A program made the translations under genes and the position numbers. The notes under the pieces were generated by a model. The model ran no database searches and was not told the origin of the DNA. It was given only the letters and a program-made list of their open reading frames with translations. DNA of 64,000 bases from an uncultured Oscillospiraceae bacterium (lineage in GTDB: Bacteria > Bacillota > Clostridia > Oscillospirales > Ruminococcaceae): positions 57,946-121,945 of the forward strand of contig CAKSWY010000002.1 of NCBI GenBank assembly GCA_934513685.1, written 5' to 3'. This document shows positions 60,564-63,956 of this stretch, piece by piece (the stretch's first letter is position 1; the number at the start of each line of letters is the position of its first letter).

Positions 60564-62056
60564 GAGTCACCCCTGCGTATACGGGGGAAAAGCCAGCGCC
60601 ATCTGCAACTTCGCAATGGCCGTAGGATCACCCCCGCGCATGCGGGGAAAAGTCTCCGATAAAAACGGTGTTTCCGCCGGACGGGGGATCACCCCCGCGC
60701 ATGCGGGGAAAAGCTTTGACCCAAAGTTGGCCCGGTTGTGTCCTACGGGATCACCCCCGCGCATGCGGGGAAAAGGCCTGAACGACCGAGAAAATGCCCG
60801 CGATGGTGGGATCACCCCCGCGCATGCGGGGAGAAGAGTTTTTAAACGATGCACCGTCAGTCCATGTGGGGATCACCCCCGCGCATGCGGGGAGAAGTGT
60901 GAAAATCGGCCCGGACACCTACCGCAAAAAGGATCACCCCCGCGCATGCGGGGAGAAGTTGGCTTTTTACAATCCGTGTTATAGGGCTTTAGGATCACCC
61001 CCGCGCATGCGGGGAAAAGGGTAAAAGGTGCCGTCGCCGGGCACCAGCCAGGGGATCACCCCTGCGTATGCGGGGAAAAGCAGGCAAGGCCGGGGCCGAC
61101 GGTCACGGTCATGGGATCACCCCCGCGCATGCGGGGAAAAGTACCGATTTCGGCGGCACACGCCAATGTACTCAGGATCACCCCCGCGCATGCGGGGAAA
61201 AGTTTGTCGGCAGCTGCGTAAAGAATTCAACCACGGGATCACCCCCGCGCATGCGGGGAAAAGTGCAGCGCCGACTAAAAAATATAGGCAATGCCAGGAT
61301 CACCCCCGCGCATGCGGGGAAAAGAACATTTTTGCACATAACAGCGTACTTAAATTGGGATCACCCCCGCGCATGCGGGGAAAAGTTGTGCATAATTGTC
61401 CATATGCAGCACATCACAGGATCACCCCCGCGCATGCGGGGAAAAGAAACAGTCCTCAAAACCGACGACCCATCGGTTAGGATCACCCCCGCGCATGCGG
61501 GGAAAAGCAGCGTCCACAGCCCTGCAACAATCATACATAAGGATCACCCCCGCGCATGCGGGGAAAAGGAAATTTGTGCTTGATGGGATGCAAGCGGCGG
61601 GGGATCACCCCCGCGCATGCGGGGAAAAGAACTCGCCCGTCTCCATGTTCTCGACGCCCACAGGATCACCCCCGCGCATGCGGGGAAAAGTGAGTTATAA
61701 TAAAGACGATGAAAGGAGTGATAGGATCACCCCCGCGCATGCGGGGAAAAGACATTGTGAGGTGCGTATGAATTTTTTGAAGTGGGATCACCCCCGCGCA
61801 TGCGGGGAAAAGCATTTTTTGAGAAGGGGGGTGAATTTGTGAGCGGGATCACCCCCGCGCATGCGGGGAAAAGACACTCCCTGACGCAATCAACAACGGC
61901 GTCGAGGGATCACCCCCGCGCATGCGGGGAAAAGCCGGCGCATCTTCCACCCCCGAGGCCCGGAGCGGGATCACCCCCGCGCATGCGGGGAAAAGAAGGC
62001 TGCGATCGTATGTTTGGCCCGTGAGACGGGATCACCCCCGCGCATGCGGGGAAAAG
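60564..62056 (-). CRISPR. CRISPR array, type I-E-like: 25 repeats of 28 nt (GGATCACCCCCGCGCATGCGGGGAAAAG on + strand), 24 spacers of 32-34 nt
   Basis: 61-62 nt periodicity; the repeat has an internal CCCCGC-GCAT-GCGGGG hairpin. The repeat at 60564 is degenerate (gagtcacccctgcgtatacgggggaaaag); variants occur at 61053 and at 60809/60870/60931 (GAGAAG). Orientation is assigned tentatively from the degenerate terminal repeat and the co-oriented cas genes. Confidence 0.9.
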
Positions 62057-62073
62057 ACTAAAAAGATCCCGTA

Positions 62074-62967
62074 TCACCGACTGTATCCGTTGCGTTCCGC
62101 TCCATTTTCGTTTAGTTTCGCATAAACTTTCTGCGTCAAACGGCAGTCGGGCACCGCCCGGTGCTCTACCTTGTCTGCCAGCGCAAAATGCTGCGCCAGT
62201 GCAAGCAGTTTATAACTGGACAGGCCCAGTATTTTTCGCCGTGCAAGAGGAAGGAGATCGATTTTCCGGTTGGCCAAAACCGGTTTCATGTTCCGAATGC
62301 AGGCCATACGCAGAAATTCCAAATCAAATTGCAGGTTGTGTCCCACCAAAGTATCTTTGCCTACAAAGCGCAGGAACGCCTCCAGCGCATCCGCGGCGTC
62401 CATACCGCCTTCCAGTTCTTCCTGTGTGATGCCCGTCAGGCGGGCAATTTCTGCGGGCAACGGCGTTTCCAGCCGCACCAGCGCCGAAAACTCCTCTCCT
62501 GGCTGCCCATCCCGGACCCGGACCGCGCCATACTCCACGATTGCATCCGTTGCCGCATGCAGTCCTGTTGTTTCAAGGTCGATCACGGTATAATCCTGCT
62601 TTCCGGGCGGTCGGGCAGCTCTTTGCGCCATTTTCTGTGCCATCTGATACTTTGCCGCCTTGCTGAATCCCGGTTTCAGCTCCAACGCCTCGACCTGGGG
62701 TTGCGCTTGCGGAAGCGGACGGCGCATCAGCTTAATGCCGTCGTAATCCACCACTTCCCAGTTAGTATTATGGGTGCGGAATTCCATCTTCTGCTCGCCG
62801 GCCGCTGTATAGACCATCGTCGCCTGTCCATTTTTCAGGTACTGGCAGACCCGATCCCAGACCGCATCCCGCACGCGGCTGCTCACGTTCCCCACGTAGA
62901 CGCCGGTGTTGATCTCACACAGCCATTTGGACAGATCTCCCCGCAGGCGCGGCGGGCAGCTGGTCAT
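62074..62967 (-). CDS. cas2: CRISPR-associated Cas2 fused to DnaQ-like 3'-5' exonuclease (type I-E Cas2-DnaQ)
   Basis: N-terminus PPRLRGDLSKWLCEINTGVYVGNVSSRVRD matches E. coli Cas2 [26 protein letters not shown]. C-terminal DEDDh exonuclease motifs (VIDLETTGL, GHNLQFDLEFL, YSR). The true start is probably upstream at a non-ATG codon (~62982), restoring the IVVLT beta-strand. Confidence 0.85.
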   Translation of the reverse strand: MTSCPPRLRGDLSKWLCEINTGVYVGNVSSRVRDAVWDRVCQYLKNGQATMVYTAAGEQKMEFRTHNTNWEVVDYDGIKLMRRPLPQAQPQVEALELKPGFSKAAKYQMAQKMAQRAARPPGKQDYTVIDLETTGLHAATDAIVEYGAVRVRDGQPGEEFSALVRLETPLPAEIARLTGITQEELEGGMDAADALEAFLRFVGKDTLVGHNLQFDLEFLRMACIRNMKPVLANRKIDLLPLARRKILGLSSYKLLALAQHFALADKVEHRAVPDCRLTQKVYAKLNENGAERNGYSR

Positions 62968-62975
62968 CGTCAGAA

Positions 62976-63929
62976 CTACAATGGCTCCTCACCCTCTTCC
63001 CAGGCAGCATAGTTGATGCCGTTGGACACCGTGCCGAGGTTGTTGTCCCAAAGATACACGGCATCCGGTTCTTCCATCTGTTCTCCGTCGCTCAGCAGCA
63101 GCCAGCGAATGTCATGCACCATCCGTTCCAGAATATGGTGCTCCACCATGGCATCCCGCACACGGCGGCGCACAACGGCAGGCAGGTCTTCCGGTGCCTG
63201 CGTTGCAACCTCAAATGCGATGGGAATGGTCACCTCGGCCTTATACAGGTCTGCAATGTCGTACACAAAAGAACACTCATGGCCGACATGCACAAACCCC
63301 AGCCCTGGTGCGCAGCCCAACGCGACAATGACCGCATGCGCCAGCCCATACAGGCACGCATGCCCGGCCGACAGCGCCTGATTGACCAGGTCTCCTAACG
63401 CAAAATCCTCCGGGCGGTACAGCCGTCCACTCCATGGCACGCCGGTTTCTTTGGACGCCTTGCGGTAGACGTTCCTCACACGGCTGCCCTCCCGGCCGCG
63501 TAGCTGCTGCATCGTAAGGTTGGAAACATCTTCTTCAGGGAAACGCAGCTGATACATCTTACGCACCACGTCCAAATGCTTCCGTTGGTTGCTGACAAGT
63601 TCTGCCTGCCGAATCAGCATCCTGGAATGGGTGGTCAGCGGGCGTCCGTGGGCGTAGTAGCGCACGCCGTGCTCTCCCACCCAGACAGCTCCCACGCCGG
63701 TATCGCCCATCAGCTCCATAGCGCGATGGGTCACGCGGGTGCCAGGCCCAAGCAGCAGCACCGAGATGCCCGCCGCCGGGATCTGGACGACGCCTTTTTC
63801 GTCCGTCACGGTAATGGCACCGTCCTGCCGCCCCAGCGTACAGTGTTCCAGATACAGAAACGTCATCCGGTCTTTTACCTGTGGCAGTGCCTGCAAATCA
63901 GGCCGGATCATGCCCGGAAGTTCATCCAT
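62976..63929 (-). CDS. cas1: CRISPR-associated endonuclease Cas1, type I-E
   Basis: 317 aa; closely alignable to E. coli Cas1/YgbT (GTRVTHRAM, VWVGEHGVRYYA, DVVRKMYQLRF, LRGREGSRVR, GFVHVGHECSFVYDIADLYK); RBS GGAGGAA. Confidence 0.92.
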   Translation of the reverse strand: MDELPGMIRPDLQALPQVKDRMTFLYLEHCTLGRQDGAITVTDEKGVVQIPAAGISVLLLGPGTRVTHRAMELMGDTGVGAVWVGEHGVRYYAHGRPLTTHSRMLIRQAELVSNQRKHLDVVRKMYQLRFPEEDVSNLTMQQLRGREGSRVRNVYRKASKETGVPWSGRLYRPEDFALGDLVNQALSAGHACLYGLAHAVIVALGCAPGLGFVHVGHECSFVYDIADLYKAEVTIPIAFEVATQAPEDLPAVVRRRVRDAMVEHHILERMVHDIRWLLLSDGEQMEEPDAVYLWDNNLGTVSNGINYAAWEEGEEPL

Positions 63930-63956
63930 GGCCAGTTCCTCCGCGCAGGATCGTCA

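What the first reader, a model, noticed from the sequence alone, without database searches (positions are those of the whole stretch)
62074..62982. Cas2-DnaQ fusion whose conserved first beta-strand lies upstream of the annotated ATG, implying a non-canonical start overlapping cas1
Alignment with E. coli Cas2 (MSMLVVVTENVPPRLRG...) shows the window protein matching from PPRLRG onward. The preceding in-frame codons read G-A-I-V-V-L-T before the ATG, reproducing the conserved hydrophobic beta1 strand. No ATG/GTG/TTG is in frame there, so ATT or CTG initiation, or coupling to cas1 termination, is implied; otherwise the protein is N-terminally truncated. The C-terminal DnaQ DEDDh domain (DxE, GHN, YxxxD present) is a known but uncommon I-E variant.
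Basis: partly seen in the sequence, partly recalled or inferred. Interest (0 to 1): 0.5.

Follow-up and report, generated by a model that had tools for sequence, protein, structure and literature searches.

The report
Cas2-exonuclease gene starting at ATT
The CRISPR memory-making gene cas2 (fused to a DNA-trimming exonuclease) in this gut bacterium almost certainly begins at a rare ATT start codon five codons upstream of the annotated ATG; the same holds for a whole clade of relatives whose database entries all lack the protein's first structural strand.

Summary
On the minus strand the cas2-DEDDh frame reads TGA GGA GCC ATT GTA GTT CTG ACG ATG, with no ATG, GTG or TTG before the annotated ATG. 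The five upstream codons (IVVLT) align to strand beta1 of every solved type I-E Cas2.

Comparative data support ATT (62982-62980) as the start:
- **Codon class.** In the window plus 71 species-level genome loci, the homologous codon is ATG/GTG/TTG in 32. It is ATC/ATT/ATA in 39, which form a single clade with one reversion to ATG.
- **Metagenomes.** Another 78 gut-metagenome loci all carry ATC or ATT.
- **Translation.** Codons 2-5 vary synonymously, so they are translated. Codons upstream are unconserved and often hold a stop 2-3 codons before the ATH codon (ATC, ATT or ATA).
- **Ribosome binding.** A Shine-Dalgarno peak sits at the same distance from ATH as from canonical starts, and is stronger. 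There is none before the internal ATG.
- **No fallback start.** Seven ATH loci lack the internal ATG, and five of these have no plausible canonical start.

The cas1 stop falls 4 nt into cas2, so translational coupling is likely. No database protein checked uses the ATH start. The Cas2-DEDDh fusion is already known. The conserved near-cognate start and the systematic mis-annotation appear unreported. Interest is moderate.

The parts
62074..62982 (-). Proposed full cas2-DEDDh coding sequence: 302 codons plus stop, with ATT start and TGA stop at 62076-62074
   Evidence: The full-length match to Cas2-DEDDh 8FY9 has E=1.6e-53, query residues 4-294 to chain residues 4-288.
62980..62982 (-). ATT, the proposed initiation codon (expected to be decoded as fMet)
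   Evidence: The homologous codon is ATG/GTG/TTG in 32 loci and ATC/ATT/ATA in 39 genome and 78 metagenome loci.
62985..62996 (-). Shine-Dalgarno region GAGGGTGAGGAG, lying inside the cas1 3' end
   Evidence: Predicted anti-SD duplex is -14.7 kcal/mol with aligned spacing 9 nt to ATT. The family-wide SD peak is at -6 from codon 1.
62989..62991 (-). In-frame TGA, the upstream limit of the cas2 reading frame, 3 codons before ATT
62965..62967 (-). Internal ATG (Met6), the start codon used in public annotations
   Evidence: There is no SD potential in the 14 nt before it. It is absent in 7 of 39 ATH-class loci.
62968..62979 (-). Codons 2-5 (VVLT), the rest of strand beta1 of the Cas2 fold
   Evidence: aligned to beta1 residues of solved Cas2. 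One search shows synonymous GTN/ACN variation.
62976..63929 (-). cas1e (317 aa). Its TAG stop at 62978-62976 overlaps cas2 codons 2-3.
   Evidence: (TIGR03638, 365 bits)
62713..62982 (-). Cas2 (type I-E) domain, about residues 1-90
62122..62586 (-). DEDDh (DnaQ-like) 3'-5' exonuclease domain, residues 133-287 with D135, E137, D220, H274, D279
62057..62106 (-). CRISPR leader equivalent: 50 nt between the last conserved codons (KLNE) and repeat 1. The window ORF runs 33 nt into it.
60625..62056 (-). Type I-E CRISPR array: 24 repeats with 61-nt period

Best explanation
cas2-DEDDh is translated from the near-cognate codon AUU at 62982-62980, giving a 302-residue protein that begins fMet-V-V-L-T-M-T-S-C-P-P-R-L-R-G and contains the complete beta1 strand of the Cas2 fold.

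**Shown:**
- The five upstream codons are under protein-level selection.
- They are homologous to beta1 of solved Cas2 structures.
- The reading frame can only open at or immediately next to this codon.
- The codon is a canonical start in sister lineages.
- A Shine-Dalgarno sequence sits at the canonical distance from it.

**Inferred:**
- Initiator tRNA reads AUU, as in infC and pcnB of E. coli.
- Initiation is weak. Near-cognates give about 1-2% of AUG in E. coli reporters.
- It is helped by a stronger SD and by ribosomes delivered by cas1 translation, which terminates 4 nt into cas2. This would be termination-reinitiation, or coupling by unmasking of the site.
- The result would be low Cas2-DEDDh output tied to Cas1.

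The likely origin is a G-to-C/T/A change in an ancestral ATGA start/stop overlap. That change removed both the cas2 ATG and the cas1 TGA, and cas1 then extended to the next stop.
For: 1. **Sequence.** There is no ATG/GTG/TTG between the in-frame TGA and the annotated ATG.
2. **Homology.** PF09707 coverage extends from profile positions 7-86 to 2-86 when the extension is included. E. coli, Megasphaera and S. thermophilus Cas2 structures all have residues aligned to VVLT.
3. **Codon classes.** In the window plus 71 genome loci the codon is ATC 28, ATT 9, ATA 2, against ATG 23, GTG 6, TTG 3. ATH loci form one clade with one reversion to ATG (L017). They span pairwise protein identity down to 48%. 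All 78 metagenome loci carry ATC or ATT, with ATC/ATT polymorphism on otherwise identical flanks.
4. **Selection pattern.** Codon 3 is GTC 13, GTT 9, GTG 9, GTA 7. Codon 5 is ACC 18, ACG 9, ACA 6, ACT 4. Codons -1 and -2 are unconserved. 18 of 39 ATH loci have a stop at codon -2 or -3. Codon 1 never becomes Val or Leu, although codons 2 and 4 interchange I/V/L freely.
5. **Loci without a fallback start.** In L025, L031 and L038 the next canonical start is codon 37. In L027 a stop lies 2 codons upstream and the next canonical start is TTG at codon 13. In L033 the next downstream canonical start is codon 56, and the only upstream one is a TTG 11 codons back, far from the SD.
6. **SD profile.** The anti-SD pairing peak is at -6 from codon 1 in both classes, -9.4 (ATH) against -7.4 kcal/mol (canonical). 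For the -20 to -3 region the Mann-Whitney p is 1e-4. Pairing potential before the internal ATG is about 0.
7. **Function retained.** ATH-clade loci keep intact DEDDh residues and CRISPR arrays, so the gene is functional and not decaying.
8. **Precedent.** AUA, AUC and AUU initiate at 1-2% of AUG in E. coli, and infC and pcnB use AUU (bioRxiv 10.1101/063800).
Against: - There is no direct protein or ribosome-profiling evidence.
- Near-cognate starts are weak, and the internal ATG is conserved in 32 of 39 ATH loci against 8 of 32 canonical loci. It could therefore act as a second start, although this association is confounded by phylogeny.
- The SD overlaps Glu codons of the Cas1 tail (GEEP), so its conservation cannot be assigned cleanly to cas2.
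- In the window the strongest AGGAG core is only 2 nt from ATT. The well-spaced pairing uses GGGTGAG.
- The SD strength difference may partly reflect higher GC content (57% against 50%).
- The AlphaFold model of the Cas2 domain had low confidence (pLDDT below 50 for residues 1-38 and 49-106). It adds nothing on whether beta1 is indispensable.
Confidence: 0.8

Rival explanations
1. Translation starts at the annotated internal ATG (62967-62965) only. This would give a 297-residue Cas2-DEDDh without beta1, and the upstream similarity would be a relic.
For: - ATG is the only canonical start.
- All gene callers choose it. 82 of 120 database homologues begin MT(N/S/D)CPP, and the window's ATG form is in NCBI, ENA and Logan.
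- Met6 is enriched in the ATH clade (32/39).
Against: - Codons 2-5 upstream show a synonymous-substitution pattern and are conserved down to 48% protein identity. A relic would decay.
- There is no SD potential before the ATG.
- 7 ATH loci have Leu or Val at that position, and 5 of them have no other plausible start.
- Removing beta1 removes profile positions 1-6, a strand present in every solved Cas2.
Confidence: 0.06
2. Dual initiation: both AUU and the internal AUG are used, giving a full-length form and a beta1-less form. The short form would be inert or regulatory.
For: - Met6 is conserved in most ATH loci.
- Ribosomes terminating at the cas1 TAG are 8 nt upstream of the ATG and could reinitiate there.
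Against: - There is no SD for the ATG.
- Met at this position also occurs in 8 canonical-start loci, so it can be an ordinary core residue.
- 7 ATH loci lack it.
Confidence: 0.1
3. The beta1 codons are reached by programmed frameshifting or readthrough from cas1, giving a Cas1-Cas2-DEDDh fusion instead of independent initiation.
For: - cas1 overlaps the first codons of cas2.
- In L027 the two genes are in the same frame, separated only by TGA GCG.
Against: - The slot between the cas2-frame stop and the cas1 stop is only 10-20 nt. It has no slippery heptamer and is not conserved in sequence.
- There is no significant RNA structure at the junction (z=+0.75).
- Relatives have a plain start codon and SD at exactly this position.
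- The solved complexes use separate Cas1 and Cas2-DEDDh chains (8FY9; PMC10284694).
Confidence: 0.02
4. Initiation at CTG (codon 4), or an assembly error or pseudogene that destroyed an ATG.
For: CTG is a permitted table-11 start. ATT differs from ATG by one base.
Against: - Codon 4 is ATC/ATT/CTG/CTT/CTC/TTA across the clade.
- The same ATH architecture recurs in 38 independent genome loci and 78 metagenome contigs, so it is not an error.
- The gene is intact, with conserved catalytic residues.
Confidence: 0.02

Closest known systems
Cas2-DEDDh trimmer-integrase of a Megasphaera NM10-related type I-E system (PDB 8FY9-8FYD; Wang et al., Nature 2023, PMC10284694)
   Same: - Same domain order: I-E Cas2, linker, then DEDDh exonuclease.
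- Full-length alignment with E=1.6e-53.
- Same catalytic residues.
- Same position next to cas1e and directly upstream of the array.
   Different: - The nearest Megasphaera-like locus here (L064, MPLTVITLKNVPP) starts at a canonical ATG two codons before beta1. The window's clade starts at ATH directly on beta1.
- About 40% identity.
- The window protein has Cys-Pro-Pro where Megasphaera has Val-Pro-Gln.
S. thermophilus type I-E Cas2 with DnaQ domain (PDB 8HI1, 8H18; PMC10470216)
   Same: Cas2 and DnaQ/DEDDh modules are homologous, with the same proposed role in trimming prespacer 3' overhangs.
   Different: The lineage is more distant. No non-canonical start is known for it from the data examined here.
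E. coli genes with an AUU start (infC, pcnB)
   Same: A near-cognate AUU in place of AUG, preceded by an SD. Relatives use canonical starts at the same position (bioRxiv 10.1101/063800 for pcnB).
   Different: - For infC the AUU is the sensor of an IF3 autoregulatory loop. No such loop is known or tested for cas2.
- Here all three AUH codons are used interchangeably.
- The start is embedded in an overlap with the upstream gene.
E. coli K-12 Cas2 (YgbF; PDB 4P6I, 5DS4)
   Same: The Cas2 I-E fold is homologous, with beta1 LVVVTE aligning to VVLTMT without a gap. It is also the partner of Cas1e.
   Different: - It has no exonuclease domain, and trimming is done by host DnaQ-family enzymes.
- It has a canonical ATG start.
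- Glu9 is replaced by Thr in the window protein.

Membership tests
Type I-E Cas2 (Pfam PF09707 / NCBIfam TIGR01873) | Profile match above the curated cut-off | tested here: met
   PF09707 scores 110 bits (cut-off 24.7). TIGR01873 scores 60.2 bits (cut-off 33.15).
Type I-E Cas2 (Pfam PF09707 / NCBIfam TIGR01873) | Complete ferredoxin-like fold including N-terminal strand beta1 | tested here: met
   Met only with the ATT start, which covers profile positions 2-86. The ATG form covers 7-86. beta1 residues of 8FY9, 8HI1 and 4P6I align to VVLT.
Type I-E Cas2 (Pfam PF09707 / NCBIfam TIGR01873) | Genomic context: directly downstream of cas1e and next to an I-E-type CRISPR array | tested here: met
   cas1e matches TIGR03638 at 365 bits. 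There are 24 repeats, CTTTTCCCCGCATGCGCGGGGGTGATCC, with a 61-nt period.
Cas2-DEDDh trimmer-integrase subunit | Single polypeptide with N-terminal Cas2 and C-terminal DEDDh exonuclease | tested here: met
   Both domains lie in one ORF. The alignment to 8FY9 chain A covers residues 4-294.
Cas2-DEDDh trimmer-integrase subunit | DEDDh catalytic residues (D, E, D, H-x4-D) intact | tested here: met
   D135, E137, D220, H274 and D279 are present in the window protein and invariant in 25 homologues.
Cas2-DEDDh trimmer-integrase subunit | 3'-5' exonuclease trimming of prespacers and PAM removal in complex with Cas1 | not testable with these tools
   This is biochemical. It is inferred from homology to the Megasphaera enzyme (PMC10284694).
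Bacterial genes initiated at a near-cognate AUH codon (infC/pcnB type) | No canonical start available in frame that would give the conserved protein | tested here: met
   For the window. In L025, L027, L031 and L038 no canonical start lies near the ATH codon. In L033 the only upstream one is a TTG 11 codons back, not matched to the SD.
Bacterial genes initiated at a near-cognate AUH codon (infC/pcnB type) | Shine-Dalgarno at functional spacing from the AUH codon | tested here: met
   Aligned spacing is 6-10 nt in 39 of 39 ATH loci. The peak position is the same as for canonical-start relatives.
Bacterial genes initiated at a near-cognate AUH codon (infC/pcnB type) | Homologous codon is a canonical start in related genes | tested here: met
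   32 loci have ATG, GTG or TTG at the aligned position.
Bacterial genes initiated at a near-cognate AUH codon (infC/pcnB type) | Experimentally determined N-terminus or initiation footprint | not testable with these tools
   No proteomic or ribosome-profiling data were available.
Bacterial genes initiated at a near-cognate AUH codon (infC/pcnB type) | IF3-dependent regulation of expression through the AUH codon | not tested
   This applies to infC only. There is nothing here for or against it.

The most novel reading that the evidence does not exclude
The near-cognate AUH start is a selected regulatory device, not just a tolerated mutation. It has been kept through divergence down to 48% protein identity, paired with a strengthened Shine-Dalgarno sequence and an overlap with cas1. 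It would hold Cas2-DEDDh synthesis at a few percent of Cas1 and make it depend on cas1 translation. Initiation fidelity (IF3 level, stress, phage infection) might also influence it. This would act as a translational throttle on spacer acquisition and on a potentially toxic exonuclease.

A second unexcluded reading concerns the 3' end of the gene. It may double as the CRISPR leader, given the constant 50-nt distance from the KLNE codons to repeat 1. Start and stop of this ORF would then both be shaped by overlapping signals.
Probability: 0.25. Interest if true: 0.6.

Novelty: new member of a known kind. Interest (0 to 1): 0.42.

Why it matters
**Practical consequences.** Every public protein entry examined for this clade starts at the internal Met and lacks strand beta1 of the Cas2 fold. 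That includes Faecalibacterium, one of the most abundant human gut genera. Anyone who clones these Cas2-DEDDh genes from the annotation would probably express a truncated protein, likely misfolded or unable to dimerise. Family alignments and structure predictions also inherit the truncation.

**Conceptual consequences.** This adds a clade-wide, evolutionarily stable example of AUU/AUC/AUA initiation outside infC and pcnB. It has an internal control, because sister lineages carry AUG/GUG/UUG at the same codon. It also shows a hint of compensation by a stronger SD. The system is testable for asking how near-cognate starts and gene overlap set subunit ratios in the CRISPR adaptation complex. Finally, gene callers restricted to ATG/GTG/TTG fail here in a predictable, homology-detectable way.

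Tried and rejected
- **AlphaFold2 model.** A model of the ATT-start protein built on a 25-sequence alignment was confident for the DEDDh domain. pLDDT was below 50 for residues 1-38 and 49-106 of the Cas2 domain. The predicted strand at residues 2-6 is therefore not used as evidence, and no fold search was run.
- **RNA structure.** Folding the cas1/cas2 junction gave nothing beyond shuffled controls (z=+0.75). No structure-based coupling or frameshift stimulator is proposed.
- **Database look-up.** Exact look-up of nine ATH-start (Met-substituted) proteins found none in the 15-billion-protein collection. This shows the start is unannotated, but cannot show whether it is used.
- **Literature.** Searches for cas2 with non-canonical or ATT start codons, or with translational coupling, found nothing relevant. 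One hit concerned a cas4 TTG annotation in Francisella, the other ureF in Synechocystis.
- **Same-species contigs.** The look-up of encoding contigs on the window's own protein returned only identical contexts.
- **Rejected alternatives.** CTG start, frameshift fusion, sequencing error and pseudogene were considered and rejected for the reasons given under the rival explanations.
Full report
**What is in the sequence.** The finding lies on the minus strand. cas1e occupies 62976-63929 (317 aa; TIGR03638 at 365 bits). The ORF called from ATG 62967-62965 to TGA 62076-62074 (297 aa) carries a type I-E Cas2 domain (PF09707) and a DnaQ-like exonuclease domain (PF00929). Upstream, the cas2 frame reads TGA(62991-62989) GGA GCC ATT(62982-62980) GTA GTT CTG ACG ATG, which translates to *GAIVVLTM. 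No ATG, GTG or TTG lies between the in-frame stop and the annotated ATG. The cas1 stop (TAG, 62978-62976) sits inside cas2 codons 2-3.

**Is the upstream similarity real?** Yes.
- With the extension, PF09707 aligns to profile positions 2-86 (110 bits). From the ATG it aligns to 7-86 (104.3 bits).
- E. coli Cas2 (LVVVTENVPPRLRG), Megasphaera Cas2-DEDDh (8FY9, TVITLKNVPQSLRG) and S. thermophilus Cas2 (8HI1, TVVTLKSVPPSLRG) all align without a gap, residue 4 to residue 4 of GAIVVLTMTSCPPRLRG.
- Every solved I-E Cas2 therefore has a strand where the window has VVLT, and the ATG-start protein would lack it.

**Comparative test.** A scan of one genome per GTDB species returned 73 loci. In 70 of them the tblastn match begins exactly at the codon homologous to ATT.

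The window plus 71 loci were tabulated:

| Codon at the ATT position | Loci |
|---|---|
| ATC | 28 |
| ATT | 9 |
| ATA | 2 |
| ATG | 23 |
| GTG | 6 |
| TTG | 3 |
| CTG (with an ATG two codons upstream) | 1 |

- On a neighbour-joining tree of the proteins, the ATH loci form a single clade with one reversion to ATG (L017). The clade includes Faecalibacterium, Gemmiger, Butyricicoccus, Flavonifractor, Fournierella, Ruthenibacterium and others. Canonical-start loci are the outgroups.
- Within the ATH clade, pairwise protein identity falls to 48%.
- A metagenome scan added 78 close relatives, all with ATC or ATT. One lineage shows ATC/ATT polymorphism on identical flanks, and none has ATG.

**Are the upstream codons translated, and from where?**
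- In the ATH class, codon 3 is GTC 13, GTT 9, GTG 9, GTA 7. Codon 5 is ACC 18, ACG 9, ACA 6, ACT 4. This is free third-position change with the amino acid kept, the signature of selection on a protein.
- Conservation stops abruptly upstream. Codons -1 and -2 are unconserved, and 18 of 39 loci have a stop at -2 or -3. The single codons between stop and ATH (AAC, ATT, CGA, AAT, GAC, GCG, AGG) cannot start translation.
- Codon 1 is only ever ATC, ATT or ATA. The neighbouring hydrophobic positions 2 and 4 interchange I, V and L freely. This fits a constraint to stay one base from AUG, not merely a constraint to be hydrophobic.
- Seven ATH loci lack the internal ATG, carrying CTT, CTC or GTA instead. 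In L025, L031 and L038 the next canonical start is codon 37. In L027 it is codon 13, with a stop two codons upstream. In L033 it is codon 56, and the only upstream candidate is a TTG 11 codons back. In these loci a canonical start would delete beta1 and usually helix 1.

**Ribosome-binding site.**
- Predicted pairing with the 16S 3' tail gives aligned spacings of 6-10 nt to the ATH codon in all 39 loci. For the window the duplex is -14.7 kcal/mol with spacing 9.
- A sliding profile peaks at the same position (-6) in the ATH and canonical classes. The peak is -9.4 against -7.4 kcal/mol. For the -20 to -3 region the Mann-Whitney p is 1e-4.
- Pairing potential in front of the internal ATG is nil.
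- Caveats: the SD overlaps Glu codons of the Cas1 tail, the ATH loci are more GC-rich, and the loci are not phylogenetically independent.

**Mechanism.** The best-supported reading has three parts.
- Initiator tRNA starts at AUU, as in infC and pcnB. In E. coli, AUA, AUC and AUU give 1-2% of AUG (bioRxiv 10.1101/063800).
- The start is assisted by a strong SD.
- It is also assisted by ribosomes translating cas1, which terminate within +1 to +16 nt of the cas2 start in most loci.

In canonical-start relatives the usual arrangement is the ATGA/GTGA/TTGA overlap. A change of the G would remove the cas2 ATG and the cas1 TGA at once, which explains why cas1 runs a few codons further in the ATH clade. 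The two ATA loci keep a 4-nt overlap (ATAG, ATAA). No slippery site or significant RNA structure supports frameshifting.

Initiation at AUU itself, its low efficiency and the coupling are inferences. Translation of the beta1 codons and the position of the start are supported by the comparative data.

**Relation to what is known.** The Cas2-DEDDh fusion is established (PMC10284694; PDB 8FY9-8FYD; also PMC10470216 for S. thermophilus). The window protein is a clear member. It aligns over its full length (E=1.6e-53), and D135, E137, D220, H274 and D279 are intact.

What appears unreported is a conserved AUH start of cas2 in a large gut-bacterial clade and the resulting systematic truncation in databases:
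- 82 of 120 nearest database proteins begin MT(N/S/D)CPP.
- None of nine ATH-start sequences is present among about 15 billion proteins, while the window's truncated form is in NCBI, ENA and Logan.
- Literature searches found no mention.

**Verdict.** The confidence that translation begins at 62982-62980 is about 0.8. Interest is moderate: a useful annotation correction and a clean natural example of near-cognate initiation, but no new kind of system.

Noticed in passing
window 62057-62106 (-); related loci L002-L070 downstream of cas2: - The cas2-DEDDh stop is only 17 nt from CRISPR repeat 1.
- Across about 55 related loci, the distance from the last conserved codons (AAA CTR AAT GAA, KLNE) to repeat 1 is constant at about 50 nt, while the stop codon floats within that stretch.
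- The 14-16 nt before repeat 1 (GGGATCTTTTTAGT) are conserved.
- The whole leader is therefore at most 50 nt and overlaps the ORF. The window's unconserved tail NGAERNGYSR is read from leader DNA.
- The KLNE codons are unusually conserved at third positions and might double as an upstream leader motif.
   Followed up: partly
window 63922-63945 (-): The cas1 ATG (63929) overlaps the end of the upstream cas6e-like ORF (ATGGATGA), with GGAGGA 7 nt upstream. Overlap and coupling are therefore the rule at junctions of this operon. The rest of the cas operon lies beyond the window end.
   Followed up: no
window 60625-62056: The array has 24 repeats with a 61-nt period. Three consecutive repeats at 60809-60958 carry a GAGAAG variant, flanked on both sides by the GAAAAG form. 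One repeat near 61053 has two substitutions.
   Followed up: no
L027 2490-2510 (possibly also L035): In this Anaeromassilibacillus locus, cas1 and cas2 are in the same frame, separated only by TGA GCG before the ATT. Stop-codon readthrough would fuse them.
   Followed up: no
L008, L009, L011, L025, L031, L033, L038: ATH-start cas2-DEDDh loci occur in bins labelled Parolsenella, Bacteroidaceae, Selenomonadales, Kiritimatiellaeota and Lentisphaeraceae. This reflects either horizontal transfer of the cassette or MAG mis-binning. If the labels are real, the AUH start works in very different hosts.
   Followed up: no
L001 2480-2503: One Faecalibacterium locus lacks a single C relative to the window (GTGAGGAGC-ATC). 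This brings the GTG of the SD element into the cas2 frame, and a database protein is called from it (MRSIIVLTM..., P0013). The GTG has no SD of its own.
   Followed up: partly
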